The position numbers and the translations under genes were made by a program. The notes under the pieces are model-generated. The model searched no databases, had not been told where the DNA came from, and saw only the letters and a program-made list of their open reading frames with translations. From a virus (taxonomy: Duplodnaviria; Caudoviricetes), in IMG/VR virus record IMGVR_UViG_3300032326_000835, positions 1 through 52,366 of that record: DNA of 52,366 nucleotides. The stretch is one strand, 5' to 3'. Shown here piece by piece: positions 22,929 through 52,134 of this stretch (within the stretch, counting starts at the first letter, position 1; each line of letters starts with the position of its first letter).

Positions 22929-23210
22929 ATGAATAAGTTTAAATGGAAAGATAATGCCGTTTGTTTAGACTACGATACAAACTTATTTTTTGAAAAATAT
23001 GAAGATGATGAATTGCTAAGGCCAGCAATTGACAGTTTGTGCTCTTCTTGCCCAGTAAGGAAAGAATGTTTTTCTGTTGGAATTTCTGGTAAAGAGTGGG
23101 GTGTTTGGGGTGGAGTTTATTTAGAAGGCGGAGAAGTCTCTAAAGAATTTTCTAGCCATAAGAGCAAAATTGACTGGGGAAAAACCTGGCAGTCTTTAAC
23201 AATGGAGTAG
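22929..23210 (+). CDS. whiB: WhiB-family Fe-S transcription factor
   Basis: W..AVC, FF, CSSCPVRKEC, GVWGG. Confidence 0.92.
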   Translation: MNKFKWKDNAVCLDYDTNLFFEKYEDDELLRPAIDSLCSSCPVRKECFSVGISGKEWGVWGGVYLEGGEVSKEFSSHKSKIDWGKTWQSLTME

Positions 23211-26956: not shown

Positions 26957-26983
26957 CCAACATTTTGCGGTATAATAATAACA

Positions 26984-27253
26984 ATGACTGACAAAGAGTT
27001 AGACCATTATAATAAGCAGCAGTATAAGAAGATGCTTGCCAAGATAAAAGAGGATTCTGGCTGTGTAGATTGTGGTGTTGGCAATCATATAATCCTAGAC
27101 TTTGATCATATAAGAGACAAAAAATACAATATATCTAGAATGATCCATGATGGTTTTTCATGGAAATCTATAAAGAAAGAGATTGAGAAGTGCGAAGTAG
27201 TCTGCGCCAATTGTCATAGGATAAGGACTCATCATCGCTTAAATGGCCAATAG
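26984..27253 (+). CDS. small HNH endonuclease, leaderless
   Basis: CVDC, FDH, CANCHRIRT; TATAAT at 26971. Confidence 0.85.
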   Translation: MTDKELDHYNKQQYKKMLAKIKEDSGCVDCGVGNHIILDFDHIRDKKYNISRMIHDGFSWKSIKKEIEKCEVVCANCHRIRTHHRLNGQ

Positions 27254-28901: not shown

Positions 28902-28929
28902 AACCACAGTATAGCACAATCATATTTTG

Positions 28930-29002: not shown

Positions 29003-29003
29003 G

Positions 29004-29089: not shown

Positions 29090-29090
29090 G

Positions 29091-29163
29091 TATCTCCAAC
29101 GGGATTCGAACCCGTGTTGCCACCGTGAAAGGGTGGAGTCCTAGGCCTCTAGACCATGGAGAC
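29091..29163 (-). tRNA. tRNA-Glu(TTC)
   Basis: CCACC-CTTTCAC-GGTGG. Confidence 0.92.
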
Positions 29164-29164
29164 T

Positions 29165-29238
29165 TGGAGCGGATGATCAGAATCGAACTGACCCCTTCTG
29201 CTTGGAAGGCAGAGGCACTACCAATATGCAACATCCGC
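29165..29238 (-). tRNA. tRNA-Gly(TCC)
   Basis: TCTGC-CTTCCAA-GCAGA; encoded CCA. Confidence 0.92.
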
Positions 29239-29242
29239 ATCG

Positions 29243-29316
29243 TACATCTGGAAGGACTTGAACCTTCGGCTCTCTGCATATAAGGCAGGTACTCTAACCA
29301 ACTGAGTTACAGATGT
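29243..29316 (-). tRNA. tRNA-Ile(TAT)
   Basis: Acceptor ACATCTG/CAGATGT; loop CTTATAT. Confidence 0.85.
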
Positions 29317-29320
29317 GTAG

Positions 29321-29394
29321 TACACCAGGTAGGACTTGAACCTACGATAACCGAATTATGAGTTCGGGGCCTTAACCAACTTGGCTACTGGTGC
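29321..29394 (-). tRNA. tRNA with CAT anticodon (Met or Ile2)
   Basis: CCGAA-CTCATAA-TTCGG. Confidence 0.88.
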
Positions 29395-32204: not shown

Positions 32205-32747
32205 CTATATAATAATTTTTCTTTCTAACATTTTATTGTAATAGAAATAACACAGACCCATATTAATATCATCTAAAATATTTTTGTTATATGATAATAT
32301 TTTTTTGCTTGATGGTAAATAAGTTTTTTCGTATATATGTGGCATTTTATTAAAATTTTTATAATCTTCTTTTTTTATTTCTAATAGTTCTATAATTTTT
32401 TTAATTACATCATCTGGATGTAATATAAGATCGTTAAAGTCAATAACATAATCTGCATGCTCATATAAAAAATTATTAAGGGTTATATATTCTGACATTA
32501 TTTGATGAAGCCTAATGTTTTGCCAAGATACACGGCTTGAATTATTTATTTCTTCTATTGCTCTGTAAGAAATAATACTATTTTTGGGATCCCTAACGAT
32601 TGTAATTATTTTTCTTGTTTTATTATTATTTTTATCAAACAATAAATCTACTGAATGAGACTTGTCAAAATGAATTCCTTCTTTTTTATAAAGAAGTTCG
32701 TCAAAATAGTGAGACCCACTTCTTGGAAATGTTACCAAATACGGCAT
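32205..32747 (-). CDS. sulfotransferase-like protein
   Basis: TFPRSGSHY (5'-PSB loop), VRDP..S. Confidence 0.7.
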   Translation of the reverse strand: MPYLVTFPRSGSHYFDELLYKKEGIHFDKSHSVDLLFDKNNNKTRKIITIVRDPKNSIISYRAIEEINNSSRVSWQNIRLHQIMSEYITLNNFLYEHADYVIDFNDLILHPDDVIKKIIELLEIKKEDYKNFNKMPHIYEKTYLPSSKKILSYNKNILDDINMGLCYFYYNKMLERKIII

Positions 32748-34320: not shown

Positions 34321-34564
34321 TTTTTATCACTCTTCCTTTTGTTTTAAACCAAGAACCTATCTTGGATTGTGCGACTTTACTTCTAAGAAGTTCACCAAAT
34401 GTTTCATGAGATATTTCTGAACCAAGATACTCTTGTCCAGTTTCAAGATCAATGAGTTTCCACTTCCCTGGCGCTCTTGTATGTAAGATCAAATCAATGG
34501 GATACTCATAATCATTTACTTCAGAACCATCTAAAAGAATTCTTTTTTTTATATTTTCTGTCAT
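34313..34564 (-). CDS. hypothetical protein
   Basis: 83 aa; coupled between the two oxygenase genes. Confidence 0.65.
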   Translation of the reverse strand: MTENIKKRILLDGSEVNDYEYPIDLILHTRAPGKWKLIDLETGQEYLGSEISHETFGELLRSKVAQSKIGSWFKTKGRVIKNG

Positions 34565-34565
34565 A

Positions 34566-35180
34566 TTAAACTATCGTAAACCAAATTGGAAGTGTATACC
34601 TTGTTCCAGACAATACTTCTTTAACCTCATGAGGGTAGTGTAAATTGCCTGGGAAGACAATGAAGTCTCCAATATTAGGCTTTATAGAAACATCATGAAG
34701 TCCAAAACTAATTTCTCCACCTTCATATGAATCATTTAAATAAACCAATACTGGCAGATGATTGTCTGTAACATACCCTAAATCATCAACATGCAACTTT
34801 AGGTATGTTCCTTCTGTCCACTTTACAACACTAAGATGTGGTTCTTTTGCTCTAATTTTTTCTTTTTCAATGCCATATGCTTTACATATTTGCTCTTTAC
34901 ATCGTTCTATTATATTGTTAATATCTTTGACACCACTGTACTGATGCATATATGTTATAGCGTTTCCTTCGTTATCTTTTTGAGACACAAAACTGATACA
35001 ATTTCTATTATCTATGTCCTCCAGCAAGTATTCAATTTCTTTTTTTGTTAAAAAATTAGGGATAACCTTAATATTTTCTGCGGAATTTCCAATCCTATGA
35101 AAAAATTCCATATATGATTCATTTCTTTCTATGCTTGGAGGATCATTTCCAACAGGTATTCCATTAACTATATAGGCCAT
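34566..35180 (-). CDS. prolyl 4-hydroxylase-like 2OG-Fe(II) oxygenase
   Basis: HVD, YLNDSYEGGEI, HEV, RYT; leaderless. Confidence 0.88.
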   Translation of the reverse strand: MAYIVNGIPVGNDPPSIERNESYMEFFHRIGNSAENIKVIPNFLTKKEIEYLLEDIDNRNCISFVSQKDNEGNAITYMHQYSGVKDINNIIERCKEQICKAYGIEKEKIRAKEPHLSVVKWTEGTYLKLHVDDLGYVTDNHLPVLVYLNDSYEGGEISFGLHDVSIKPNIGDFIVFPGNLHYPHEVKEVLSGTRYTLPIWFTIV

Positions 35181-35224
35181 ACAACCATTATACACTATGA
35201 GTGGATTTGAAGTATAATAGGATA

Positions 35225-35539
35225 ATGACCCTACTATATATTTTGTATAGCCCTGCATACCGTGCCATTAAAATAGGTATATCAGATGTCTCAGGCAGAA
35301 GATATGCAAGTCATAGGACTAAGGGATGGATATTGATAAAGTATTGGTGGTTTTCCGAACGGGATAAGGCAAGAGCAATAGAATCCCTAGTAGTACAAAC
35401 ACTTACTAAGAAGCATGGATACTTCTTAGATAAAAAAGATATGCCTCAAGGCGGATACACTGAGACATTTGATGCGTCTAAGATAACTCGAAAAGGCTTG
35501 ATCCGTATGGTCAATAGGGCTATAAAGGACCTGTCGTAA
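35225..35539 (+). CDS. GIY-YIG/T5orf172-like nuclease
   Basis: LYIL..IKIGIS..RR..E..GYTETF. Confidence 0.7.
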   Translation: MTLLYILYSPAYRAIKIGISDVSGRRYASHRTKGWILIKYWWFSERDKARAIESLVVQTLTKKHGYFLDKKDMPQGGYTETFDASKITRKGLIRMVNRAIKDLS

Positions 35540-35542: not shown

Positions 35543-36142
35543 TTACCTTGGTTTTATACATCGAGCAATTGCCTCAGTATAAAACTTATATAAACGAGAC
35601 AGGTCTAACTGCTCTACATACATCTTTATTTCTTCATACTCAGGAGAAACCTTACTAGATACAAGATGGCTGTATTCTGGATATCCTTTTACTGTATTTT
35701 CTTTATAGCCTTTGGTAATTATTGGTAGATTCATAGCATCTGCTACCGCAATGGTGGTTTCAAGAGGATATGTCATTAAGTCCTCATAGTCTATGATGGT
35801 ATGAAATCCTTTGGATACATCTATCTTGTCTACAGCGTCAAAGTATTCTTGTACATCTTTTATTATTTTATTATTTTTAATATCATTAAGAGTCTCATTA
35901 TCTTTGTCATAAAAAGCAGTCATTGCTATCTTTGATGTAACCATATCGACAGGATCTCTTGCTATTGTTATCATTTTGTTATTTTTAGCACTGTGATATT
36001 TTTTAATATATACACCAGTGTGCTGAAGGATTCTGTCTTGAAGATAAAAGGATCCAACTCTAGGTGGTGTGACTATAGAGTATTCTAGGTTTACCTTATC
36101 AAATATCCTAGGTTGATCATTTACTTCTGGCATTTTGGACAC
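35543..36142 (-). CDS. sulfotransferase-like protein
   Basis: TPPRVGSFY, ARDP..S, YEDL. Confidence 0.7.
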   Translation of the reverse strand: MSKMPEVNDQPRIFDKVNLEYSIVTPPRVGSFYLQDRILQHTGVYIKKYHSAKNNKMITIARDPVDMVTSKIAMTAFYDKDNETLNDIKNNKIIKDVQEYFDAVDKIDVSKGFHTIIDYEDLMTYPLETTIAVADAMNLPIITKGYKENTVKGYPEYSHLVSSKVSPEYEEIKMYVEQLDLSRLYKFYTEAIARCIKPR

Positions 36143-40132: not shown

Positions 40133-40426
40133 GTGGGGTTCTTTCTGTTAGGGTATATTATAAGTATAGCGGTTTGATATTAATCTGTCAACTTCATTCG
40201 CACTAGGTCATAAGCGTCAATGGCACCAGCACAGTAATCATCTAGTTCATGATCATTTTCTAACTGATACTGCTCACGCTTTTCTGTGAGGTCAGCAATG
40301 CGTTCCTCTACAAATTTACGCAGGGTATCAATAACATCTAGTGAAGCACATTCTCCACAGTATGAGTTGTAGTCCTCTTCCTCTGTATAGGGGATAGAGC
40401 AACCACAACTGTTACACCATGATTCA

Positions 40427-40717: not shown

Positions 40718-40739
40718 ATCATACCCTCTGCCACTGACA
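40718..40739 (-). promoter_or_regulatory. PafBC-type promoter 1
   Basis: TGTCAG-TGGCAGAGGG-TATGAT. Confidence 0.7.
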
Positions 40740-41432
40740 AAAGGTGACGGGTAGCCAATACCTGTCCGTTTAAATGAATAACAGAATCACGGTCACCGTC
40801 GGGCAATCTATCATAGTCTTGTTCTAGACTAATCAAATGTATCTTTATATATTCAATGAACTCATTCATTACATATTCTCCCTTACAAGATTATTACTAA
40901 CTAACTCATCAATTACAACTGCGTTGCCATAGTGTTGGACGACCTGCTCAAACTTGTCCTCACCCCAACCACCCCACTCTTCTTCAATCTCATCAATCTC
41001 GTTTTGGTTTAGTTGTTCAGTGTCCAGAATAAAAAGCGGGGAGCGAGAGTCAAACTCCCACCAATCCCCATTGACATTGCTAATGTAAATAGTCATTAGT
41101 TATCCTCGCACTCATGGGCTTCAATAAACGACGGCATATCAATTAACTGTAAGTCACAATCTCCACAGTAAGGAACATAAACTACATTAGTTGTCATCTT
41201 CTTCCTCATCTTCATCTTCTGAGGTTTGTGTTACATCAATTGAATAGACTTCACCTGAGAAAGCATAATCTTCATAGTGCCAGCCAAGTTCTTCTGCGGC
41301 TTGTTCGTCTTCTGCTTCAACTTCGTAGTTATACTCTACGATTACTTTAATGTCATATGTTGGCATTAGGGTCTCCTTTTTCTTTATATATTAATTATAG
41401 GGGTTGGTGTTGATTTTTACAACTTGTGAGGG

Positions 41433-41448
41433 TGTGATATCAGTCACA
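41433..41448. promoter_or_regulatory. CRP-family box
   Basis: TGTGA-TATCAG-TCACA upstream of a TTGTAA-N17-TATAAT promoter (- strand). Confidence 0.6.
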
Positions 41449-42171
41449 TCATCTGGGCTGGTCTTGACTGTTGCATCTTCCCAGCCTAAAAGGATCAATT
41501 CATCTGGGTAGTCACAGACACAGGTAGGAGCCTTTTTAAAGTCTTGGGTAGTTACCTCAAAGAGGGTATCACAATGGGTACAGATAAGATTATACTTAAG
41601 CCAAGTAGTCATTAGTCAAAATACCCTTCTGCCCATAGTCCTTGTAGAAAATCTTCTGCTAGTTTTAGTCCTTCTTTATCTTCAGGTGTAGTTACATATT
41701 TGTATGCATTTTGCACAGCAACAACCATGAGTTCTTGGTCATATACTTCATAACCTAGCATTACTCACCTTCCTCAAACTCATGTCCAATAATATCAATG
41801 TGGTCAGGTTCTGTTCCCTGAATTTCTTCAAGCATTAGGGTTTGGGCTTCAACCAGGGTATCAGCCTCAATCTCCCTGTTCCAATAGTTATTTACTCTCT
41901 CATGATAATCAATACTGAATTTCATTACTCTCCCTGATTAACTAGATAGGCACGGACTTCTTCAAGGGTATTAATTGATTCCTCACACATTACGATTAAG
42001 TCTTCTCTAGTCATTATTCTCCCCAATACTTGACAATAGTTTCCATGGTAATATGTAGGTGGCAGTCACAGGGTTCTCCACCCATGTTCTCCTCAAATTC
42101 AAAGTGCGATAGGTTGTCCTCATAAATTTCCATTACGAGTTCTGATATGGTGTATGGCTTGTATTGTGTGG

Positions 42172-42597
42172 TCATGCTTCTATCATAACACTAGGGTCTG
42201 ACATTTTGGATTGCCATAGGTCACAGTTTCTATCTAATCTATCACCAAAGACACGGATGTAGTCTGCGATATCTTCTGTTTGATCTGTTAGACATTCTTT
42301 GACTGTATCTACTGATATAAAGACTCTTCCATTCCATAGACCCATTTGGCCAATGTTTGTTGGTACCTCTAGGCAACCATATGTATCTTGTTCCCAGCCA
42401 ACACCTTCTGAGCAAACCAAGGCATACTTGTTGTCGCCAAATACATTTTTTTCATCCAGGGTAACGAATAGTAAATTGTCTACAGTACATTCACTAAAGT
42501 CGCTACTATACTGTAGATTGTAAATTCCATTAGCGATTACTGCTAACTTCTTGCCGTCAATGATTTGTCCTATATAGCCTTTTGATCGATTTCTCAT
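42172..42597 (-). CDS. hypothetical protein
   Basis: AAGGAA RBS; TTGATA-N17-TATACT promoter. Confidence 0.65.
   Translation of the reverse strand: MRNRSKGYIGQIIDGKKLAVIANGIYNLQYSSDFSECTVDNLLFVTLDEKNVFGDNKYALVCSEGVGWEQDTYGCLEVPTNIGQMGLWNGRVFISVDTVKECLTDQTEDIADYIRVFGDRLDRNCDLWQSKMSDPSVMIEA
42182..42203 (-). promoter_or_regulatory. PafBC-type promoter 2
   Basis: TGTCAG-ACCCTAGTGT-TATGAT, ATG 6 nt later. Confidence 0.7.
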
Positions 42598-42799
42598 GGG
42601 GTTCCTTTGTTAGTGGGTATATATCAAGTATAGCCGAAACCTGGGAAAATATCAAGTCTGTCGTAAAGAATTTTTGGTTTGACATTTTGGGGAAAAGGTT
42701 TGATGATCGTAAAGTTTATTTTGTTTGACATTTTTATGTCCGATATGTCTGGTTTGGTCCACGTGCGATTTTTTATGCATTGTGCTGCATATTTATTTG

Positions 42800-42873
42800 C
42801 GAAGCGTACGGGACTTGAACCCGTGATCTCTACCGTGACAGGGTAGCGCATTAACCAACTATGCTAACGCTCC
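42800..42873 (-). tRNA. tRNA-Asp(GTC)
   Basis: GGAGCGT/ACGCTTC acceptor; CTACC-CTGTCAC-GGTAG; TTCAAGT. Confidence 0.92.
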
Positions 42874-42878
42874 ATGCG

Positions 42879-42904
42879 AGGCAGTTTTAATTCATGCCTA
42901 GGAA
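42879..42904 (-). ncRNA. repeated pseudoknot element copy 3
   Basis: TTC-CTAGGCAT-GAA-TTAAAAC-TGCCT. Confidence 0.6.
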
Positions 42905-42910
42905 ATTGTA

Positions 42911-43933
42911 TCATGCGAGAGACATTACATTCTGCACAACTTTTAGCAGACGATTTTTCTCTGCGTTAATTGCAGGGTCAAAGCCTGATGCTGATGCAAG
43001 GATTGATTCGTTAGAACCACCACGAGCAGAGCGATACCAATCAAGGCGCTCAGTAAGTGCATTGAACGCACCCCAAGCATTACCAGCAATCATGCCATTG
43101 AATTCGCCAGTGTAAATATCGTTGATTACATCAACTTTATTTTCCCACTTCTTGCTTGAACCCTTAGCATCTTTTTCTGGCTTAGGATATGCAGCAAGAA
43201 TGATGTCGTTGAATTGCTTAGCATTGACTTCCTTCTCGAACATAGCCTTAGCCATGATGTCGAATTCGTCCATGTATGCATTAGCAAGACCAAGAGTCTC
43301 ACGAGCAATCTGCACCTTACCATTGGCGGTTTGAGTGTGGCGAATCTTGAAAGATTGCTTGATGCCCTTATTTTTCTTACGACCTACGCCACCAAGAGCA
43401 AGGTTAAGAGTATTAGCGCACACAACACGAACAGGTGTTATGCTTGCTTGAATGGCAATAGAACCATCGTGTGATGTGTTGATAAGTAGATAAGTTTTAA
43501 CCTTATCACTTACGCCGTTAGGGTCTAGGATTGTTTCACGCTCTAGTGCAAGAGCACCGAATACAACACGACCACCCTTGATTGAGCCAGCGGTCTCCCA
43601 ACGACCACCACCGTCTAGGATATTATCACCGAATGAGAATAAATCTTCATTCTGCAATGGGTGATAACGCTCACCAACGATGCCAAGAACATCTGTCTGT
43701 GTGTTATCGGTAGGATTTGTTCGCAAGACATATTGGTATGCCTTGTCGCTTGTTAGATGTGTAGGGGTTTCCAAATCTTCCAGACGAACATTCCAACCAT
43801 TAAGATTTGCTGCGGACAACATTTCTGCGGTTGTTTTTTCTTCTGTGAATACGGTTCCCAATCCATGCCAAGCAGGTTCACGGAAAGATGCGAATGATGT
43901 TTTTCCGTTTTGTGTTTCTAGGTCATGTGCCAT
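42911..43933 (-). CDS. DUF932 / TIGR03299 family protein
   Basis: Start MAHDLE; PAWHGLG, ETAGSIKGG, NTSHDGS, TPVRVVCANT. Confidence 0.88.
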   Translation of the reverse strand: MAHDLETQNGKTSFASFREPAWHGLGTVFTEEKTTAEMLSAANLNGWNVRLEDLETPTHLTSDKAYQYVLRTNPTDNTQTDVLGIVGERYHPLQNEDLFSFGDNILDGGGRWETAGSIKGGRVVFGALALERETILDPNGVSDKVKTYLLINTSHDGSIAIQASITPVRVVCANTLNLALGGVGRKKNKGIKQSFKIRHTQTANGKVQIARETLGLANAYMDEFDIMAKAMFEKEVNAKQFNDIILAAYPKPEKDAKGSSKKWENKVDVINDIYTGEFNGMIAGNAWGAFNALTERLDWYRSARGGSNESILASASGFDPAINAEKNRLLKVVQNVMSLA

Positions 43934-43964
43934 GAGTTTTCTCTTTTCTGTTGTTGTTAATTTA

Positions 43965-44110
43965 AGTATACACCGACCCACTGACAAATGCAAATCGGGA
44001 TAGTTAAACAGGGGATAAATCGGACATTCCTTAATGTGATTAAATTCACATGATCGTAAAGGCGTGTCGTAACTTATCCACAAGTTATCCACAGGCCCAC
44101 GTGCAATTTT
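43965..44110 (-). promoter_or_regulatory. regulatory module: PafBC-type promoter 3, CRP box, GACAC motif, 2 DnaA boxes, CACGTG
   Basis: Promoter 43965-43986; TGTGA-N6-TCACA 44035; GGCGTGTCG 44061; TTATCCACA 44074, 44085; CACGTG 44098. Confidence 0.75.
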
Positions 44111-44127
44111 TGCAGGAAAATAAAAAG

Positions 44128-44157
44128 TGAGCAGTTTACATGGCCATGCTCAGGGCC
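44128..44157 (-). ncRNA. repeated pseudoknot element copy 4
   Basis: GGCC-CTGAGCAT-GGCC-ATGTAAAC-TGCTCA. Confidence 0.65.
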
Positions 44158-44203
44158 CTCACCTAGTTTAGAGACATTCGGCATGTCTATTAGTAGCCCC
44201 CTA

Positions 44204-44635
44204 CTAAAAATCAATCCTGTCTACACTTGAAGAAAGCCAAGTAATATTATCAGAATTATATGATACAGATTCAAAATCAATATCATTTACAATTGATTCA
44301 ACATCCTCATCGTGAGGTACCTGCAGTGTTAAGTTATAAGTTACGGTAACCTCAACTTCAACTTCCTTGATTAATTCAAAGCCACAGATTTCTGCAATCT
44401 CATTTGCTTGGTCCTCTGTGATTCCACCGTCAGAAAGTTCTTTCATTGTCCACTCGTGCATTGCGTCACGCATTGACTGTGTTGCATTCTGTGCTTTGTA
44501 GACATTCTGTGACATCTCTGAAGAGCGCTCCTGCAATGACAGGATTAATGCATCTTTTCTTTGAAGTGATTCCCTAAATGATTCAATCTGATTATTAAGG
44601 AATTCTGTTGTTGCATTTGTTACGGTTTGGTCCAT
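44204..44635 (-). CDS. coiled-coil hypothetical protein
   Basis: 143 aa; AAAGAGG RBS. Confidence 0.65.
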   Translation of the reverse strand: MDQTVTNATTEFLNNQIESFRESLQRKDALILSLQERSSEMSQNVYKAQNATQSMRDAMHEWTMKELSDGGITEDQANEIAEICGFELIKEVEVEVTVTYNLTLQVPHDEDVESIVNDIDFESVSYNSDNITWLSSSVDRIDF

Positions 44636-44665
44636 GGGGGCCTCTTTCTATTGTTGGTTTACTTA

Positions 44666-44687
44666 AGTATACTACTGGCCACTGACA
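44666..44687 (-). promoter_or_regulatory. PafBC-type promoter 4
   Basis: TGTCAG-TGGCCAGTAG-TATACT. Confidence 0.7.
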
Positions 44688-44708
44688 ATTGTCAAGGACC
44701 CTTGCGGG

Positions 44709-44735
44709 GAGCCTTTTCCCTACATGCTCAGGTAG
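44709..44735 (-). ncRNA. repeated pseudoknot element copy 5
   Basis: CTAC-CTGAGCAT-GTAG-GGAAAAG-GCTC. Confidence 0.6.
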
Positions 44736-44843
44736 TATGGGTTCTTTCAGTCCCCCAATGAACTGTGCTCTATAGTATTTCTGTGATCGCCCTAATCAGC
44801 CTGGCGAATTGGAGTGGGGCTTTTACACCCCACCCAACCTCAT

Positions 44844-45269
44844 TTAGAGATAACGAGCCACCGCATTGTATGTGGAAGTATTTACAACTTCCTCATCTGT
44901 CATTTTGAGGATACGAATTGCGTTCGTGATTTCCTCTTTCATTTCCTTATAGGTATGAGTATGAATAACCTCAAAGTCCTTTTCAGGTTCAGCAGGGAAC
45001 TCATTTTCATTGGCTACTACAATATCAAAATCAACATTGAGATTGTTATTCCAAGAACGATAGTTAGTGCGAAGGTTGATTGCCTTTGAGAAATTAGCAA
45101 TAGCCCACTTACCAATTTCTGTTTTCCATGCTTCATATGCGATTAGGTGCTTTCGTTCGTTTTCACCTTGTGTTGCGTAGTCCATCTCTAGTTTTGCTAG
45201 TGATGCTTCTAGTCCTGCGATTACTCGTTGAGTAGGGATTTTTACTGAGATTGCTTTGCCTCTTGCCAT
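44844..45269 (-). CDS. hypothetical protein
   Basis: 141 aa; followed by GTGGGG/CCCCAC hairpin. Confidence 0.7.
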   Translation of the reverse strand: MARGKAISVKIPTQRVIAGLEASLAKLEMDYATQGENERKHLIAYEAWKTEIGKWAIANFSKAINLRTNYRSWNNNLNVDFDIVVANENEFPAEPEKDFEVIHTHTYKEMKEEITNAIRILKMTDEEVVNTSTYNAVARYL

Positions 45270-45311
45270 TTGTTTTCTCTTTTCTGTTGTGGGGTGTTAG
45301 TTGGGGGTTTG

Positions 45312-45341
45312 TGAGCCTTTTGACAACTTGCTCAGGTTGTC
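45312..45341 (-). ncRNA. repeated pseudoknot element copy 6
   Basis: GACAAC-CTGAGCAA-GTTGTC-AAAAG-GCTCA. Confidence 0.65.
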
Positions 45342-45405
45342 CCACTCTATTTATTTAGACACGCATTTCTGTGGGGCGTGTTTGGTTTTGGCGTTATTGC
45401 CAAAC

Positions 45406-45570
45406 TTACTTGGCTGTCCAAGTTGTGTAACGGGTTGCACCTGCTACATCTAACTTAACACGAACATTACCATTTGCCTGTGGTGTGATTTCTGTGATGA
45501 TACCACTTACCTTTGACTTTTGTGTTGTGTAGGTATCGCCTACCTTGTATGTTGCTGTTGCTACTGCCAT
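45406..45570 (-). CDS. small SH3-like beta protein (not in ORF track)
   Basis: MAVATATYKVGDTYTTQKSKVSGII..; own TTGACA-N18-TATACT promoter. Confidence 0.65.
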   Translation of the reverse strand: MAVATATYKVGDTYTTQKSKVSGIITEITPQANGNVRVKLDVAGATRYTTWTAK

Positions 45571-45675
45571 TTTTTTCTCTTTTCTGTTTAGGGGTTGTTA
45601 TTTGGTTATACCTAAGTATAACATTTTGTAAATAAAAATGTCAAATCGAAACCTGACATTTCTCACATATTGAGA

Positions 45676-45846
45676 TTACTTAGATGTCTTGACCATAGCC
45701 AAGCGACGAGAGCCGTTTGCTAGGACAAGTGAAACTCTAGTAACCTTATTAGACATTGGTGTAAAACCTGCGATACGACCTGTAACGCCTGTCTTGCTTG
45801 TTGTAAATAAATCACCAATTTGGTAAGTGTATCCATGAAGTGTCAT
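45676..45846 (-). CDS. small SH3-like beta protein, paralog of the previous gene
   Basis: TYQIGDLFTTSKTGVTGRI; AAAGG RBS. Confidence 0.65.
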   Translation of the reverse strand: MTLHGYTYQIGDLFTTSKTGVTGRIAGFTPMSNKVTRVSLVLANGSRRLAMVKTSK

Positions 45847-46083
45847 TTGGGTCTTGCCTTTCTTTGTGGGGGTTAATTGCTTATAGTATAATTTTAGCAG
45901 AAAAATGTCATAAATGCTAATTCTAGGGGGGTTTTGGGGTGTGTTCTTAAACACATCTTAAAGGCGTGTCGCAACTTGACAAATTAAGTTTTGCCGACGT
46001 GGATCCCTGCAATTTTTATTGGTGGAAAAATAAAAGTACTATGCACCAAATTAAAAATATTATTTGCAGGGAATTCATTTATC

Positions 46084-46818
46084 TCATTTCTTAGTTGCAG
46101 AAAAAATTATGTCACTCTTAGAGTATACACACAATGAGCAAGAAACGCAAGCGCTACCTTTTTCTGATATTAGTTTAATTTGTTTATTATTTTCAGGACA
46201 TTTAGCAGCAGGCTTACCAATCATTTCTTTTACATCGGCCTGGCCAATTGCAAAATTCTTAGCAAGATATGCCATGCGAACCCCGCTATTAATTTTTAAA
46301 TCAACGGCAGTTTTAACATTCTCACTATCTGCAGAAAAATACAATGATAAATTAGATACATCCTTAAGGATAAGCGCTGCAGACTTAACTCGTGTGTATA
46401 CCCAAAATTGAATGTCAGGATTATTTTCAATTACAACTTTCCAGGCATTAGTATATGTATCATTAAAAAAGTCTCCGTCCCAGTGGATACGGAACAACTT
46501 AGGGGCATTTTTCTTTTCACAATCTGCAATAAACTCATCAATCATTTCAGAAAGTAGCATGAGCATAGTTAGACCGTCTGCGTCTTTTAGCAGGGACCAA
46601 TTGTGTAGTAGGTTAACCTTTACGGTAGGGAAGACCTTTTCCAATTTGCCTGCATAGCAAACACTCTCGCAGACACTCGTAGCGCCAGGACATGAATAAG
46701 CCTTTCCTGCAGGTAGGCCAAAGGTATTTGCGATACTTGCTTGTTTTCCATTAGGGGTGACGGCATTAGCAACCTTTCTATCTTTTGATCTTTTTAGTTT
46801 AAGTGTATTAGTAGTCAA
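46084..46818 (-). CDS. Gp88-like Fe-S (radical-SAM-like) phage protein
   Basis: CPGATSVCESVCYA, FRIHWDGDF, CVSCSLC. Confidence 0.75.
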   Translation of the reverse strand: MTTNTLKLKRSKDRKVANAVTPNGKQASIANTFGLPAGKAYSCPGATSVCESVCYAGKLEKVFPTVKVNLLHNWSLLKDADGLTMLMLLSEMIDEFIADCEKKNAPKLFRIHWDGDFFNDTYTNAWKVVIENNPDIQFWVYTRVKSAALILKDVSNLSLYFSADSENVKTAVDLKINSGVRMAYLAKNFAIGQADVKEMIGKPAAKCPENNKQIKLISEKGSACVSCSLCVYSKSDIIFSATKK

Positions 46819-47015
46819 GGCCTAGGCTCATTTCTAATGCAATGTCTTCATTATACATTGCGGACATTTCTTCTAGTAAGCAATGGGTGCATTTTTCTTC
46901 ATATGCGTCAACCGCATTTTCTTTACATTCAGGGCAGGTAGTTGCATAGTATTCGTCATAGAACTCATCTGATATATTTCCCATGGGGGCTATTCTCCTT
47001 TTTGTTGATATTTTA

Positions 47016-47037
47016 ATTGTAGCATTTCGGACTGACA
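47016..47037 (-). promoter_or_regulatory. PafBC-type promoter 5
   Basis: TGTCAG-TCCGAAATGC-TACAAT. Confidence 0.7.
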
Positions 47038-47148
47038 TTTTCTACCCTTGCGAGAGTAGGCCTTTTTAGAGGGAACGGCAGAGGCAGCATTGCTACGGCG
47101 TAATTCCATAAGCCTGCGTAATTCCTCTGGTGTTTTTTTCATATAATA

Positions 47149-47220
47149 ATCTTAGCATACAGGGGAAAAAATATCAACTTCTTAAATGTGATAAATCTCA
47201 CAAGGGCGGGACGTGCATTT
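47149..47220 (-). promoter_or_regulatory. regulatory module: sigmaA promoter, CRP box, GACGTGC
   Basis: TTGATA-N17-TAAGAT; TGTGA-TAAATC-TCACA 47187-47202. Confidence 0.65.
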
Positions 47221-47496
47221 CTGTGCGGGGAAGCACACAAAAATACTTTTAACTATTCTTCTTCTTCAATAAAAACATATAACTTAAATACATGTTCATA
47301 GTTGCAAATAAAAACATCTTCCTCACCATAGTCATTACGATAAGTAATTGTGTAATTATCTCCAGTAGCATCATCTTCAATTGATATTACATCAACAATA
47401 ACACCTTCAATCTCTACAAGATCATTTTCCATTAACTGGCTAGGTGTTAGTAGGTCTGCATATACAAGTTCCATGCTGTTTATTGTATCAGACATT

Positions 47497-47781
47497 CTAA
47501 TCCTCCCAATCGGGTAGCCAAAACGATAGGTGGTGTTGGTCTACAATCGCTCTTGCAGGTGCTTGAGTTTCTCCACGATAGAGAATCTGAAAGTCACCAA
47601 CCTTTGGCATATCAATCATGCGCTCATAGTCCTCATCATAGTAAGCGTCAATAGCCTCGATACAAGGTTGCACCATTTCTGCGGGGACTGGAGGGTAGTG
47701 ATTACCCTTTAGGTGATAAAGAATCTGAGTTTCTAAATCCAAGACTGTATCCTGAATTCCTAACGCTGTAACTGCTCCCAT
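47497..47781 (-). CDS. hypothetical phage protein
   Basis: HLKGNHYPPVP motif; in compact operon 47253-48517. Confidence 0.65.
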   Translation of the reverse strand: MGAVTALGIQDTVLDLETQILYHLKGNHYPPVPAEMVQPCIEAIDAYYDEDYERMIDMPKVGDFQILYRGETQAPARAIVDQHHLSFWLPDWED

Positions 47782-48549
47782 ATTATTTCACACTCACATT
47801 TCCATTACGATAGAAGGTCTTGGTATACATTTTACCCGTAGGGTCTGACAAGTTATATGTTGCATATTCCTTAGCATCGCCATAGTCCACACACTTATTC
47901 CATGCAGTTACTATTTCTAGCATATCTGCGGTGCGTGTTGTTGATACAAGTTCGCCGTCATAGGCGATAGTAAGTGAGTAGTTATATTCCATTAGTCGTT
48001 CTCCTTAGTAGTAAATAGTGCGCCTTCATTAAGCAAGCCTAACTCTAAATTAAATAGTTCATCGCTATTAGCCTTAGACAAGTCTATCCAACCTGCGCCA
48101 TCGTTGTCAATTCTAAATATCTCTACATATCCCATTAGTGTTGTTCCTCGCAATTCTCTGAATAGTTAAACTCACAATAGTAGCAACCCATAGTTTCTCC
48201 ATGAGCCTTGCATACATATTTAAATTGTAATTCATCGCAACACAATAGTTGCTCATCTTTAATTAAATAGAATTCGTTTTGGTCAATATAGGTATCTATC
48301 ATTATGCACCAACCTTTACTGCAACTGTGCGATAAGTTTTGCGACCCCAATTATTGTAACCGCTATTGGGTGCAACCTCTACAAGATAGGTTTCGCAACC
48401 CTCATACCAAACTGCGTGAGGGTGAGGCTCTGCACTTACAATTTCACCTTGCAAGGTGCGTGATGAGTAATTTGTTCCCACTAGAAGGGACTGGACTGTA
48501 TATACATTTGCTGACATAGTGTCACCGCTTTCTTTTTCTTGATAATTCT

Positions 48550-48571
48550 ATCTTAGCATAGGGGACTGACA
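48550..48571 (-). promoter_or_regulatory. PafBC-type promoter 6
   Basis: TGTCAG-TCCCCTATGC-TAAGAT. Confidence 0.7.
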
Positions 48572-48632
48572 TTTTCGGTTAGCCCCGCCGTAGCGGATAG
48601 ACTTTCTTTTATTTATTTTTTCTTACTATGTA

Positions 48633-48790
48633 AGTCTAGCCTATCAGACATAAATTATCAACTTACTAGCCAGTAAATCCAAATAGTGAGACGCTCAAGT
48701 CGTGTGATTAATCTCACAAAACTTCGGGCGTGTCGTACACAGCCTCTTAAACACTTGTGGATAAACCTGTGGATAAGTCCCACGTCCAAT
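48633..48790 (-). promoter_or_regulatory. regulatory module: sigmaA promoter, CRP box, GACAC motif, 2 DnaA boxes, CACGT
   Basis: CRP 48703-48718; GGCGTGTCG 48727; TGTGGATAA 48756, 48768; CACGT 48781. Confidence 0.75.
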
Positions 48791-48801
48791 TTTTGAAGTG
48801 T

Positions 48802-48828
48802 TGAGCAGTTTTAGATCTTGCTCAGGAT
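48802..48828 (-). ncRNA. repeated pseudoknot element copy 7
   Basis: ATC-CTGAGCAA-GAT-CTAAAAC-TGCTCA. Confidence 0.65.
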
Positions 48829-49605
48829 TTTTTTTATTCAGTAATTATCTTTGTTACACGCTTCAAAAAATTTAGTTGCATCAAATCTTTTGTTGTCTGC
48901 TTGAAACATACTAGCAAACTCATCAACTAAATCGTGAAAAGTAAATTCATCACCGATTAAATCTTTAAATGATGAAAGAATTTCAGCAGTTGCCACATAG
49001 TCTTTGCGTGTCATCATTATTCGGCCACCTTTAAAAGTGCCCAAGAGCCACCTTCGTTAATTTCATCTAGTGCTGGCTGAATTCTTGGTGCAACCATTTC
49101 TTTTAGCATACCTTCAAGAAAAACAATTTGCATTTCACTAGGAAGTTGAAGCAGGCGCAGAGCAGTTGGGTGAGTTTCATCAACCTCGGTTACGAATTTT
49201 AGAGAGTGTTCAATTTTTACCATTTTTATTTATTTCCTATTCTTTTAGTTGTTGAATTGTTGTAGGTCTTGGTCAATACCAAAATCGCAGTTGCAAGTTT
49301 CTACATCGTAGTCATTTCCGTTACCGAAAAAAATTAGTCCTGTTGAATTGCATTCATCGCAGGGGATAGATAAGACGGAGTTTATCATTAGAGAACCGCC
49401 TTACCTCTAAGAGTGCCACTAACGCCAAGAGCGTCACAAGCAACTTTAACGGATACACCAACTGGGAGTTGTGTTGGGTAAGTTGAGAGGAATTGAGCAA
49501 CCGCACCACGAGAAGCAAGGTTGATTTTTTTTGTAGAACCATTAAAGGTTTCTAGTGTTATAGTGTAAGTCATTGGGTGACTTCCTTTCGTTTGTTTATA
49601 TTACT

Positions 49606-49830
49606 ATTCTAGCAGAGGGGTCTGACATTTTGGGCACTTATTTGCTTAGGCTCACTGTGATACTGGTCACATTTATTTGCTAAGGCTCATTGCTTTATTA
49701 GTCATTATTTAATTGTATAAGAGAATCTTATCACAAAAATATTAAAAAGTCAAGCCCAAACACGGCGTGTCGTAAGTGATTAATCTCACATTAGTTGTAC
49801 ACAGCCTGTGGATAACTTTTGCCACGTTCA
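49606..49830 (-). promoter_or_regulatory. regulatory module: PafBC-type promoter 7, two CRP boxes, GACAC motif, DnaA box, CACGT
   Basis: Promoter 49606-49627; CRP 49656, 49775; GGCGTGTCG 49764; TGTGGATAA 49807; CACGT 49823. Confidence 0.75.
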
Positions 49831-50666
49831 AAATTATTCGCCTTTCACGAATAAATAGGATCCAATAAAAAAAGAAATAAAAGAAAACCAAAACAATGCA
49901 TTACCACTTGCAAAAAAAGTTTGATAAAAATTATTCATTAGTTACCCCATTCTAAAAAATAAAATAAAAAATTAATTAAAATGTTTGCGTGTGATGTTAG
50001 CATTTCAATTGTTGCTAAATCTTTTGCTTCATTTATCCAATCAAGATATTGAAATATGTCTGCAAATAGTGAGTTTATGTTCATTTATTGTTCACTCACC
50101 TTTTCTAATTCGTTGCGAAATGATTCCGCAGTTTCATGTTGTTGTTTCAATGTGAGTGAAGCCCACAAGTAACCCATTAGGTAAGCGTTGCCACTATCTA
50201 CATCGCCACGAATATCTTGTGACATAGATTTTACATATTGAAGTAATTGCATATCAGTCATTAGTTGTAACTCCTTTTACATTCTGAACATAGGTAATTT
50301 AATTTGCAATAGCAACCTGCATATACAGGTTCTGGATTTTCATAGTAGTCATCATAGTAATTCATAGATTATCCCCAACATTCTGAACAAGTAGCGGTTA
50401 AAAGTTTTGCATCTGCGAGAGCAACTTCAACAGTAGGCTCTTCGCAAATTTGACAAGATAAAGTTATCATTTCTTTTTGCATTAGTTTTCACACTCACAT
50501 TCTGAGGCAGATAGGTCAAAGTCGCAATATTGGCAACCTTGAAATTCAAAGTGTTCATCGCAATAAATTGCGGTTTGCATTTCTTCGCAACACAAGAATT
50601 GTTTTGTGCCACGCAAGAAAACTTTTGTTAAAGGCATATGAGAAAGAATAAGTGTAGGTGTACTCA

Positions 50667-50852
50667 TTAGTTAGACACCTTCCACTTAGACCATGGAGAA
50701 AATGGGTTTTCAATATCAGCCCATCTTTCAATGTTCTGTTCACACTCTGTACAGAATGTAAATTGTTCATCAAATGCCATGTTGCAGACAGTTGAGATAG
50801 CGGACATTTGAGGTGTATGCATTTCGCATACTGTAGTTTTTAGTGAAGTCAT
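50667..50852 (-). CDS. small Zn-binding protein (paralog of 51663-51845)
   Basis: CxxH..TFCTECEQNIE..WSKWKVS. Confidence 0.65.
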   Translation of the reverse strand: MTSLKTTVCEMHTPQMSAISTVCNMAFDEQFTFCTECEQNIERWADIENPFSPWSKWKVSN

Positions 50853-50907
50853 TTTAGACTTCCTTTCTTTAAGGGGCTTACTTCTTTTTCAACCTTCTAT
50901 ATATAGA

Positions 50908-51055
50908 AGTATAACAGAGGGGTCTGACATCTACTGGAGAGTAATCATACCAAAACGGACATTTTGAAATGTGACTTACATCATGTGGATAACTTGAGCG
51001 TAAATCGTAGGTGTGATGTGCATCATGTGGATAACTTTTTGGCACGTGCAAAAAT
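50908..51055 (-). promoter_or_regulatory. regulatory module: PafBC-type promoter 8, CRP-like/DnaA overlaps, CACGTGC
   Basis: Promoter 50908-50929; TGTGA-N6-TCA overlapping TGTGGATAA at 50984 and 51026; CACGTGC 51043. Confidence 0.75.
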
Positions 51056-51662
51056 TGCAGAGTGTGAATCTGCAAGATTTGTTTTTATTTATTTATAGTC
51101 TTTAAAAATTTCTTCTAAAGTTTTAATTTGATCATTTGTTAAATGGTCAATGTTGATTGCATTTGCAAATCCGAAAATATCTTTTTCCATTTACTGAATC
51201 TCCTCTACATGAAAAGCGTTAAACTTTTCAATTTCGTTTTCGCTAAGTGGATAGAGCGATTTTTGTAGAGCGAATACCGCTCTCATTTCATCTTCTGCCT
51301 CTACAGCATAAGAAATAAGCACATTATATTTAGTCATTTATTTGACTCCTTTATATAGAAAATCCCAAGCCTTACGGCACATTAAAATTGACTCACAGTT
51401 ATCGCAACAGATAACACCATGAGGGTTAAGGTCTACATCATAGACATCAACAGAGGCGAAAGATTTGCCACATACAGAGGCAAGATTTACGAAACTACTC
51501 ATTTATTTACTCCTTCAAATAGTTCTTTACACTTATTAGGATTTTCCCAATAAGGCTGACCCTCATGATAGAGGGCGGGGGCTAATACAACCTGACCGCA
51601 GGGGCATAAGTTCATCATGCCTTTGGGGTAATTGTTTACCGTAGGAAAGCGAGTCCAAATAC

Positions 51663-51845
51663 TCATTGAGACACCTTCCATTCTGACCAACCACTTAGTC
51701 GGTCTGAGTCATAGTCCATATACCATGACTCTATATTATTTTCACATTCCATGCAGAATGTATAAGCCACATCATTGTGAAATTCAACCGCTGGCTTGAA
51801 CGGCTTATGAGTAACGCATATTGCGTTAGTTGTTAGTGTAGTCAT
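51663..51845 (-). CDS. small Zn-binding protein
   Basis: CxxH..TFCMECENNIE..WSEWKVS; AAAGGTGG RBS. Confidence 0.65.
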   Translation of the reverse strand: MTTLTTNAICVTHKPFKPAVEFHNDVAYTFCMECENNIESWYMDYDSDRLSGWSEWKVSQ

Positions 51846-51900
51846 ATTGACCACCTTTCTTTAGCGGATTTCTTTACCGCTTGTTTTTCTTTATATGATA

Positions 51901-52134
51901 ATTATAGCAGGGGGGTCTGACATCTACTAGCCAGTAACTATGCTAAAACGGACATTTTGATTTGTGAATCACATCACATTTTCGGGGGAATTATAACAAT
52001 AAAGTAACAATACTAACATTAACGGCGTGTCGATTTGACAAGGTCGACGTGCGATCAGTGTGGTGTATATCACATAGAAAATGTCCGATTTGTCCGTGTC
52101 TAAACTTGACTTTTTGAGATTTCTGTGCTATACT
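51901..52134. promoter_or_regulatory. divergent regulatory module: PafBC-type promoter 9 (-) and sigmaA promoter (+)
   Basis: TGTCAG-N10-TATAAT 51901-51922; CRP 51963, 52059; GGCGTGTCG 52024; GACGTGC 52046; TTGACT-N17-TATACT near 52106. Confidence 0.72.

What the first reader, a model, noticed from the sequence alone, without database searches (positions are those of the whole stretch)
40718..51922. Nine PafBC-type (DNA-damage-activated) promoters drive the small-gene arm
Seen: TGTCAG-N10-TANNNT occurs nine times on the - strand with invariant spacing (40718, 42182, 43965, 44666, 47016, 48550, 49606, 50908, 51901). Each lies upstream of a gene start, and two are 6 nt before a leaderless ATG. 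Established: this matches the actinobacterial RecA-independent DNA-damage promoter (TGTCRG-N10-TANNNT), which is read by sigmaA-RNA polymerase only with the ssDNA-sensing WYL activator PafBC. Inference: the phage wires its probable early genes to the host DNA-damage sensor, so the host alarm raised by infection would switch on phage transcription. I do not know of this being described for a phage.
Basis: partly seen in the sequence, partly recalled or inferred. Interest (0 to 1): 0.88.

Follow-up and report, generated by a model that had tools for sequence, protein, structure and literature searches.

The report
Phage promoters mimicking host DNA-damage promoters
An abundant group of uncultured freshwater phages of actinobacteria drives one arm of small genes from about ten promoters built like the host's own DNA-damage (PafBC-type) promoters, so the phage may borrow the host's damage sensor to switch these genes on.

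Summary
TGTCAG-N10-TANNNT occurs 12 times, all on the - strand (0.73 expected). All nine reported sites are exact. A tenth likely promoter lies at 47829. Two other matches (48495, 26972) are coding or doubtful. Each of the ten sits 6 nt (two, leaderless) or 30-55 nt before an ORF.

The motif is conserved across the phage family: 687 gene-strand copies against 3-4 control matches in 80 related loci. Hexamer and spacing are rigid. In five complete ~110 kb relatives it is confined to one ~11 kb arm.

The phage encodes WhiB, and its nearest cultured relatives are Streptomyces phages, so the host is very probably an actinobacterium. No sigma, WYL, PafB/C or MotA homologue was found in the complete relatives.

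In one order of streamlined Actinomycetota, 81 of 81 genomes carry WYL genes, mostly as pafBC-like tandems. In 72 of 81, the same TGTC(A/G)G-N10-TAnnnT element plus a LexA box is present. In the one genome examined it precedes recA, dnaE2 and nrdR.

PafBC-type reading is my best explanation (about 0.55) but is untested. "Early" timing is unsupported, because a second, canonical TTGACA-N17-TATAAT promoter class serves the rest of the genome. I found no published description.

The parts
51901..51922 (-). Class II promoter TGTCAGACCCCCCTGCTATAAT; ORF 51845-51663 (60 aa) starts 55 nt downstream
50908..50929 (-). Class II promoter; ORF 50852-50667 (61 aa) starts 55 nt downstream
49606..49627 (-). 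Class II promoter; ORF 49573-49388 (61 aa) starts 32 nt downstream
48550..48571 (-). Class II promoter; ORF 48517-48302 (71 aa) starts 32 nt downstream
47829..47850 (-).
47016..47037 (-). Class II promoter; ORF 46984-46808 (58 aa) starts 31 nt downstream, followed by the GP88-family gene 46818-46084
44666..44695 (-). Dual promoter: TTGACA (-35, 18-nt spacer) abutting TGTCAGTGG, then TATACT; ORF 44635-44204 (143 aa) starts 30 nt downstream
43965..43986 (-). Class II promoter; DUF932 gene 43933-42911 starts 31 nt downstream
42182..42203 (-). Class II promoter with leaderless design: ATG of ORF 42175-42014 lies 6 nt after the -10
40718..40739 (-). Class II promoter with leaderless design: ATG of ORF 40711-40427 lies 6 nt after the -10; last of the class in this direction
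48495..48516 (-). Pattern match that overlaps the start codon of ORF 48517-48302; read as a coding-sequence coincidence, not a promoter
26972..26993 (-). Isolated pattern match outside the arm; lacks the G/C pair and the TG; conserved in relatives; status uncertain
51949..51966 (-). Upstream element TCACA-N7-ATGTCCG, about 26 nt before the 51922 promoter. Further copies at 50956-50973 and 44021-44038 (-) and at 52071-52087 (+)
52106..52134 (+). Divergent canonical promoter TTGACT-17-TATACT (with TG) pointing out of the window, preceded by the ATGTCCG element
45615..45644 (-). Canonical (class I) promoter TTGACA-18-TATACT inside the arm
40163..40191 (-). Canonical (class I) promoter TTGACA-17-TATACT just past the last class II promoter; class I continues to about 29.9 kb on this strand
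22929..23210 (+). WhiB-like gene (93 aa), a marker of actinophages
   Evidence: passages

Best explanation
The ten sites are real promoters of one class, aWW-TGTCAG-W-S-S-N4-(TGn)-TAnAAT. They drive a roughly 11.5 kb arm of mostly small genes of unknown function in an uncultured, roughly 110 kb freshwater actinophage.

They have the architecture of actinobacterial PafBC-dependent (RecA-NDp) DNA-damage promoters: a -26 element, TGTCRG, exactly 10 nt upstream of a sigma-A -10, usually without a -35.

The most likely mechanism is that host PafBC reads them. PafBC is activated by single-stranded DNA. It would bridge sigma-A region 4 and the TGTCAG hexamer (sigma adaptation), so the arm is switched on, or boosted, when single-stranded DNA appears in the infected cell.

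Shown here: the motif, its conservation and rigidity, its confinement to one arm, its placement before ORFs, and the same element at host-lineage damage promoters.

For: 1. The motif is far above chance: 12 matches against 0.73 expected, all on one strand.

2. It is conserved in the phage family. In 80 related loci (1.34 Mb) there are 687 gene-strand and 83 opposite-strand matches, against 3 and 4 control matches.

3. The logo shows no -35. It has an invariant hexamer, G/C at positions 8-9, and a TGnTAnAAT -10 region.

4. The element is rigid. Exact TGTCAG occurs 417 times, any single-mismatch variant at most 7 times, and other spacings 0-3 times. That suits a stereospecific contact with RNA polymerase better than a loosely placed operator.

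5. It is restricted to one arm in 5 of 5 complete relatives, with 8-13 copies each.

6. The geometry equals the published PafBC consensus and -26 element. PafBC acts through the non-palindromic RecA-NDp motif.

7. Actinobacterial host: a WhiB gene, nearest cultured relatives are Streptomyces phages, and leaderless start designs.

8. In the order around MAG G007, 81 of 81 genomes have at least 2 WYL genes, mostly adjacent pairs. The pair in G029 scores HTH_PafC at 1.5e-31 plus WYL and WCX. Its PafB aligns over its full length to 7P5X chain AY (E 1.3e-35) and keeps the DNA-reading arginines R46 and R50 in RMFERDK.

9. In that order, 72 of 81 genomes carry TGTCRG-N10-TANNNT directly followed by a LexA box; controls gave 0. 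In G029 these sites precede recA-recX, a dnaE2-dinB cassette and nrdR-RNR.

10. The 35 unique host sites share the phage's fine structure: A at position 5 in 71%; G/C at both positions 8 and 9 in 33 of 35, against 348 of 430 phage sites; and TGG, TCC and CCC among the commonest triplets in both.

11. More distant family members use TGTCGGTGG instead. One example has 17 motif sites in 10 kb, mostly TGTCGGTGG. That is the other base allowed by the R of the PafBC motif.

12. Apart from the binned phage contigs, genome-wide counts of the motif in MAGs G006 and G007 are near control level. It is therefore not a housekeeping promoter type there.

13. No sigma r2, sigma r4 above cut-off, WYL, HTH_PafC, PafB homologue or MotA C-terminal domain was found in 5 of 5 complete relatives.
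Against: - The host is not identified. Contigs of this phage family are binned into MAGs labelled as at least six different phyla. The phage WhiB is only 30-47% identical to the WhiBs of the candidate order.
- The phage -10 regions are close to consensus (TAnAAT). 262 of 430 phage sites have an extended-10 TG, against 7 of 35 host sites. Sigma-A RNA polymerase might start there without an activator.
- 138 of 430 phage sites, and many in divergent relatives, also have a -35-like TTGA/TTGC just upstream. The published mycobacterial class lacks this, although 27 of 35 host-order sites have it too.
- The hexamer is far more invariant in the phage (98% A at position 5) than in the host sites.
- The Streptomyces-phage relatives BillNye and Jay2Jay show no enrichment: 0 and 2 matches, against control counts of 1-3 per strand. 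Yet Streptomyces, by recall, has PafBC. Use of the motif is therefore specific to this lineage.
- All motif-bearing contigs seen may belong to one broad phage family, so a family-specific phage factor is not excluded.
- There is no expression data.
Confidence: 0.55

Rival explanations
1. A phage-encoded activator of unknown fold reads the TGTCAG box and redirects host sigma-A RNA polymerase, as T4 MotA/AsiA does at middle promoters. The canonical TTGACA-N17-TATAAT promoters would be the true early class and would express that activator.
For: - A second, canonical promoter class exists and is strongly gene-strand biased: 432 against 47, controls 30 and 18. It is interleaved with class II and then replaces it.
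- The box sits at about -26, 10 nt before a good -10 and usually without a -35. I recall that T4 middle promoters look like this; PMC8635444 itself draws the parallel with AsiA/MotA.
- The hexamer is more invariant than in host sites.
- All motif-bearing contigs found may be one broad family.
- Most ORFs of the arm have no known function.
Against: - No MotA C-terminal domain, sigma, WYL or PafB/C homologue was found in 5 of 5 complete relatives.
- An unrelated activator would have to match, by coincidence, the host's hexamer, its exact 10-nt spacing, the A/G alternative at position 5 and the G/C pair that follows.
- The promoters nearest the divergence point are class II only. This does not fit a class that must wait for an early product.
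Confidence: 0.25
2. The promoters fire with sigma-A RNA polymerase alone, through the extended -10 with or without a -35. TGTCAG would then be a site for a repressor or other modulator, of phage or host origin, that shuts the arm off or times it.
For: - 262 of 430 phage sites have TGnTAnnnT, and the -10 is near consensus.
- Many sites in relatives have a full TTGAYA -35 at a 17-nt spacer with TGTCAG inside the spacer.
- Another conserved upstream element (TCACA-N6-7-ATGTCCG) shows that further regulators act here.
Against: - A 6-bp asymmetric site with no inverted partner (low information from -30 to -4) is unusual for a repressor.
- The spacing to the -10 never varies: 417 against 0-3. Steric blocking would not require that.
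- The same element at host recA, dnaE2 and nrdR promoters sits beside a separate LexA operator. There it is the activating element, according to the mycobacterial work.
Confidence: 0.15
3. The matches are a chance or repeat artefact and are not promoters.
For: Two of the 12 matches (48495 and 26972) are probably not promoters. One unrelated contig, G152, owes its matches to a tandem repeat.
Against: - 0 of 100 shuffles reach 12 matches.
- 687 matches against 3-4 in controls across 80 loci.
- Fixed placement before ORF starts.
- Sequence between the conserved blocks varies freely.
Confidence: 0.02

Closest known systems
PafBC-dependent (RecA-NDp) DNA-damage promoters of mycobacteria and other Actinobacteria (sigma adaptation; PMC8635444, PMC11804915, bioRxiv 10.1101/612655)
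   Same: - TGTCRG hexamer at -28..-23, exactly 10 nt before TANNNT.
- Non-palindromic.
- Usually no -35.
- G/C-rich bases after the hexamer; the TGG subclass equals the TGTCRGTG consensus, which I recall from Gamulin 2004 and did not see in any call.
- The candidate host order has pafBC-like genes and the same element, in G029 at recA, dnaE2 and nrdR.
   Different: - Located on a phage genome, about ten copies in one arm.
- No LexA box beside them: 0 exact matches in the window, and one with a mismatch at 9790, which is within chance.
- Stronger -10 (TAnAAT) and a frequent extended-10 TG.
- Almost only A at position 5 in this sublineage.
- PafBC dependence is not shown.
Phage T4 middle promoters (MotA box at -30 with a sigma-70 -10; MotA/AsiA sigma appropriation)
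   Same: An upstream box replaces the -35 at a fixed short distance from a good -10. It forms a distinct promoter class alongside canonical promoters in the same phage.
   Different: No MotA, AsiA-like or sigma gene was detected (for MotCF; AsiA was not searched separately). The box sequence here equals a host regulator's site.
Streptomyces phages of the Stanwilliamsviridae (BillNye, Jay2Jay)
   Same: DnaE-type polymerase and large terminase are 52-55% identical. They also have large genomes (about 105-134 kb), many tRNAs and a GC content well below that of actinobacterial hosts.
   Different: The motif is not enriched in BillNye (0 matches) or Jay2Jay (2 matches; control counts 1-3 per strand).
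DNA-damage control of temperate phages through LexA or RecA (SOS induction; recalled, not from any call)
   Same: Phage gene expression is coupled to the host's DNA-damage state.
   Different: That works by removing a repressor at one or a few operators. Here it would be positive control by the RecA-independent activator at about ten promoters. No integrase or repressor was seen in the window.

Membership tests
PafBC-dependent (RecA-NDp) promoter | Hexamer TGTCRG at about -28..-23 (the -26 element) | tested here: met
   10 of 10 sites in the window. The hexamer is essentially invariant in relatives: 417 exact against at most 7 for any variant. The position is inferred from the -10 and from two ATGs that lie 6 nt after it.
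PafBC-dependent (RecA-NDp) promoter | Exactly 10 nt between the hexamer and a TANNNT -10 | tested here: met
   417 at this spacing against 0-3 at nine other spacings. Consensus taken from PMC8635444.
PafBC-dependent (RecA-NDp) promoter | No canonical -35 element | tested here: inconclusive
   The logo shows no -35. However, 138 of 430 phage sites have TTGA/TTGC within 10 nt upstream, and site 44666 has a full TTGACA. 27 of 35 host-order damage promoters also have one.
PafBC-dependent (RecA-NDp) promoter | The host encodes PafB and PafC with the DNA-reading arginines | tested here: inconclusive
   The host is unknown. In the candidate order, 81 of 81 genomes carry WYL genes, mostly as tandem pairs. 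HTH_PafC scores 1.5e-31 in G029, and R46 and R50 are conserved.
PafBC-dependent (RecA-NDp) promoter | Transcription requires PafBC and rises on DNA damage or single-stranded DNA | not testable with these tools
   No RNA run was listed. Reporter or in vitro transcription assays are needed.
T4-type MotA/AsiA middle promoter | Phage-encoded MotA-like DNA-binding activator | tested here: not met
   MotCF (PF09158): 0 of 5 complete relatives at E<=1. No such family appears among the Pfam hits reported for 77 and 35 window ORFs; one search showed only 25 of 34 families.
Alternative sigma factor promoter (phage-encoded sigma) | Phage sigma-70-family gene | tested here: not met
   Sigma70_r2: 0 of 5. 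Sigma70_r4: 0 of 5 over the cut-off, with one hit at E 0.038. A 10-nt spacer is also too short for sigma-70-type -35/-10 recognition (established knowledge).
Actinophage | WhiB-like gene and relatives among phages of Actinobacteria | tested here: met
   Pfam Whib 1.8e-11, assigned to ORF 22929-23210 by its cysteine motif. Best tblastn hits are all Streptomyces phages. WhiB is used as an actinophage marker in passages of PMC10202952 and PMC6802176.

The most novel reading that the evidence does not exclude
A very abundant family of freshwater actinophages has no activator of its own for one whole gene arm. Instead it uses the host's single-stranded-DNA sensor PafBC, by sigma adaptation, as the dedicated activator of about ten promoters. 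Expression of these small genes, possibly counter-defence or takeover functions, would then be triggered by the same alarm that infection or replication raises. With about ten strong -26 sites on every replicating phage genome, against three found by the composite LexA-box pattern in a 1.3 Mb host-type genome, the phage could also draw PafBC away from the host's own damage response.
Probability: 0.45. Interest if true: 0.85.

Novelty: new variant of a known kind. Interest (0 to 1): 0.72.

Why it matters
PafBC sigma adaptation is so far known only as a chromosomal stress response of Actinobacteria. If a phage family has copied that promoter type for a whole gene arm, three things follow.

- It would be the first case of a phage borrowing this RecA-independent damage activator. 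That is a host-supplied counterpart of T4's MotA/AsiA.
- It would tie phage gene timing to the appearance of single-stranded DNA.
- It would do so in phages of what may be the most abundant freshwater bacteria.

The claim is directly testable with reporter fusions in wild-type and pafBC-deleted laboratory actinobacteria. The motif could also help assign uncultured phages to actinobacterial hosts.

Tried and rejected
- **Close DNA relatives.** A megablast of window 1-20000 against cultured phages found no match.
- **Host from binning.** 16 genome-contig loci carry this phage family. They sit in MAGs labelled Bacteroidetes, Chitinophagales, Victivallaceae, Lishizhenia, Methylococcus, cyanobacterium, Phycisphaerae, Gammaproteobacteria, Flavobacteriaceae and two Actinomycetota. 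I read this as mis-binning and make no host call from it. I used the two actinobacterial MAGs only as entry points to actinobacterial genomes.
- **Host from WhiB identity.** Identity is only 30-47% in the candidate order, which is uninformative.
- **Expression data.** No RNA holder was listed for window 42001-52000.
- **LexA boxes in the phage.** No exact match. One 1-mismatch match at 9790 is within chance.
- **Motif clusters in unrelated phages.** A two-motif scan of IMG/VR gave 40 loci. Those with clusters either share proteins with this family or are 18-29% fragments of genomes of similar size. One (G152) is a tandem repeat. This test therefore could not separate a host factor from a family-specific phage factor.
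- **Records not held.** The G2 actinophage records KU886271 and KU886273 are not in the collection.
- **Phage-encoded readers.** Searches for sigma, WYL, PafB/C and MotA found none. Unknown folds cannot be excluded. I made no structure predictions, because the relatives are too similar (81-92%) to give useful alignments.
- **Not seen.** Rafique et al. 2025 (ACS Infect Dis, PafBC and mycobacteriophage resistance) is known to me only as a citation in PMC12848934 and was not read.
- **Unpublished genome.** The count of 7 of 61 includes a match in G105, which is flagged unpublished. Only that count rests on it.

Full report
**What the window is.** The window is an IMG/VR viral contig of 52,366 bases, rated 48% complete, with about 37% G+C. 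It encodes the following:
- a DnaE-type polymerase, a RecA/UvsX-like recombinase, a large terminase, a carbamoyltransferase and several 2OG-Fe(II) oxygenases;
- eight tRNAs;
- a WhiB-like protein at 22929-23210.

By protein, the nearest cultured phages are all Streptomyces phages of the Stanwilliamsviridae, with DnaE and TerL up to 55% identical. WhiB is used in the literature as a marker of actinophages (passages in PMC10202952 and PMC6802176). The host is therefore very probably an actinobacterium, despite the low G+C.

**The observation.** TGTCAG-N10-TANNNT occurs 12 times, always on the - strand, against 0.73 expected; 0 of 100 shuffles reach 12. Widening the fifth base to R adds nothing. 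The nine reported sites are exact.
- A tenth site, 47829-47850, also precedes an ORF.
- The match at 48495 overlaps a start codon and recurs as coding sequence in relatives.
- The match at 26972 is isolated and atypical.

In the ten good sites the -10 hexamer lies 6 nt before an ATG twice (leaderless design) and 30-55 nt before an ORF start eight times. Seven of those eight have a Shine-Dalgarno-like sequence.

**Conservation.** The GP88-family protein of the arm (46084-46818) has at least 595 relatives in IMG/VR. The best 80 loci (81-92% identity) were kept.
- In their 1.34 Mb the pattern (with R) occurs 687 times on the gene strand and 83 times on the other strand. Control matches number 3 and 4.
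- The logo from 481 distinct sites reads aWW-TGTCAG-W-S-S-c-N3-TGn-TAnAAT, with no information where a -35 would lie.
- With TGnTAnnnT held fixed, exact TGTCAG occurs 417 times, any one-base variant at most 7 times, and any other spacing 0-3 times.
- In five complete relatives (105-115 kb) the motif is confined to one arm of about 11 kb, with 8-13 copies each.

**A second promoter class.** Canonical TTGACA-N16-18-TAnnnT sites are also strongly gene-strand biased in the related loci: 432 against 47, with controls of 30 and 18.
- In the window they occur on both arms.
- Six of them have an ATG exactly 6 nt after the -10.
- In 40 of the 80 loci, class II fills -6 to +6 kb around the GP88 gene. 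Class I is interleaved from about -3 kb and takes over from +5 kb.

The genome therefore has a canonical class as well. Nothing shows that the TGTCAG class is the early one.

**Comparison with PafBC promoters.** PMC8635444 gives the in vivo consensus tGTCgg(N10)tA(N3)T. The PafB helix-turn-helix domain reads the -23..-28 element through R46 and R50, a canonical -10 is present, and there is no -35. PafBC acts through the non-palindromic RecA-NDp motif. The phage motif has this geometry exactly.

**Does a plausible host read such promoters?** Binning gave no host, but two actinobacterial MAGs served as entry points to actinobacterial genomes. In the order around one of them I sampled 81 genomes of 1.2-2.2 Mb.
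- All 81 have at least two WYL genes, mostly adjacent ORFs of about 300-345 aa.
- In G029 the pair scores as HTH_PafC/WYL/WCX and WYL/WCX.
- The G029 PafB aligns end to end with the PafB chain of the RNA polymerase-PafBC structure 7P5X. It keeps RMFERDK, which holds R46 and R50.
- In 72 of 81 genomes, TGTCRG-N10-TANNNT is followed within 14 nt by a LexA box; controls gave 0.
- In G029 the three such sites precede recA-recX, a small gene plus dnaE2 and dinB, and a LysM-like gene plus nrdR and a ribonucleotide reductase.

The 35 distinct host sites held in loci resemble the phage sites in detail:
- A at position 5 in 71%;
- G/C at both positions 8 and 9 in 33 of 35, against 348 of 430 phage sites, in DNA that is only about 38% G+C;
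- TGG, TCC and CCC among the commonest following triplets in both sets.

In a phylum-wide sample the tight composite arrangement is much rarer, at 7 of 61 genomes. That count includes G007 itself and the unpublished G105. Outside the binned phage contigs, the plain motif is at control level in the two MAGs, so it is not a housekeeping promoter type there.

**Does the phage bring its own reader?** In five complete relatives I found none of these:
- WYL;
- Sigma70_r2;
- a PafB homologue at E<=1;
- HTH_PafC;
- the MotA C-terminal domain;
- Sigma70_r4 above the cut-off, with one hit at E 0.038.

Pfam and PHROG scans of 77 ORFs from 25-52 kb showed no regulator. The first half of the window has WhiB and one weak helix-turn-helix hit, probably beside the terminase. 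An activator of unknown fold cannot be excluded.

**Variation within the family.** More distant members (62-74% GP88 identity) keep the class. Some use TGTCGGTGG. Many place a TTGAYA -35 directly before the hexamer, at a 17-nt spacer. One fragment has 17 such promoters in 10 kb, mostly TGTCGGTGG. The Streptomyces relatives BillNye and Jay2Jay are not enriched.

**Weighing.** The reading as real promoters is secure. I judge PafBC the most likely reader, at about 0.55. The reason is that hexamer, spacing, A/G alternative and flanking G/C pair all coincide with the damage promoters of a plausible host lineage, while no phage reader is visible.

Against strict dependence:
- the phage sites have stronger -10 regions and a frequent extended-10 TG (262 of 430, against 7 of 35 host sites);
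- some have -35-like elements;
- the host is unknown;
- every motif-bearing contig I found may belong to one broad family.

The rivals are a phage-encoded MotA-like activator (0.25) and a modulator site on promoters that work on their own (0.15).

**Literature.** I found no paper describing PafBC-type or RecA-NDp promoters on a phage, in these full-text searches:
- 'PafBC' + 'phage': 61 papers, 20 listed;
- 'RecA-NDp' + 'phage': 5 papers;
- 'PafBC' + 'mycobacteriophage': 12 papers, 10 listed;
- 'actinophage' + 'early promoter' + 'DNA damage': 1 paper.

For these I saw the listings and abstract starts only. I read passages of PMC8635444, PMC11804915, PMC12848934, PMC6802176 and bioRxiv 10.1101/612655, and part 1 of 2 of PMC10202952. 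Subscription papers are outside the library.

Noticed in passing
window 15025, 15591, 19067, 20845, 26232 (+); 45644, 42655, 40191, 37862, 37810, 37604, 36871, 32199, 30633, 29891 (-): A second promoter class, the canonical TTGACA-N16-18-TATAAT type. It is strongly gene-strand biased in relatives (432 against 47). Six window copies have an ATG exactly 6 nt after the -10, which is a leaderless design typical of Actinobacteria.
   Followed up: partly
window 52071-52087 (+); 51949-51966, 50956-50973, 44021-44038 (-): A conserved upstream element, TCACA-N6-7-ATGTCCG(W)TTT. There are 30 copies in 26 of 80 related loci (controls 0 and 2). Every copy lies 18-26 nt before a promoter of either class, mostly near the divergence point. 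It is probably the site of another regulator.
   Followed up: partly
L099 (G007:C195), G149 (via L202), G151 (via L208): Divergent members of the phage family use TGTCGGTGG-N7-TATAAT instead of TGTCAG, with up to 17 promoters in 10 kb. Many relatives place a TTGAYA -35 directly against the hexamer.
   Followed up: partly
L091-L106: Contigs of this phage family are binned into MAGs labelled as at least six different phyla in public genome collections. This is likely binning contamination of those MAGs.
   Followed up: no
window 28929-29394 (-), 16776-16849 (+), 42799-42873 (-): Eight tRNA genes: a cluster of six (Arg, Ser, Glu, Gly, Ile-tat, Met), plus Asn, plus Asp. The Asp gene lies inside the class II arm.
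   Followed up: no
window 4535-5242, 23852-25012, 32893-35258, 32205-32747, 35543-36142, 17663-19084: Many auxiliary-type genes: several 2OG-Fe(II) oxygenases, two sulfotransferase-like proteins, a carbamoyltransferase, a TipAS-domain protein (28506-28919), and an Hsp20 whose position I did not map.
   Followed up: no
host-order loci L111-L176 (for example L174, L176): In the sampled actinobacterial order, the dnaE2 and nrdR damage promoters combine a -35-like cTTGCc, the -26 element and a LexA box. The recA promoter lacks the -35-like part and has TGC-TACCTT. The published mycobacterial description states that there is no -35.
   Followed up: partly
G152 (via L183), about 841-1132: An unrelated viral contig holds a 27-nt tandem repeat that happens to match the pattern seven times. 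This is a caution for motif scans.
   Followed up: no
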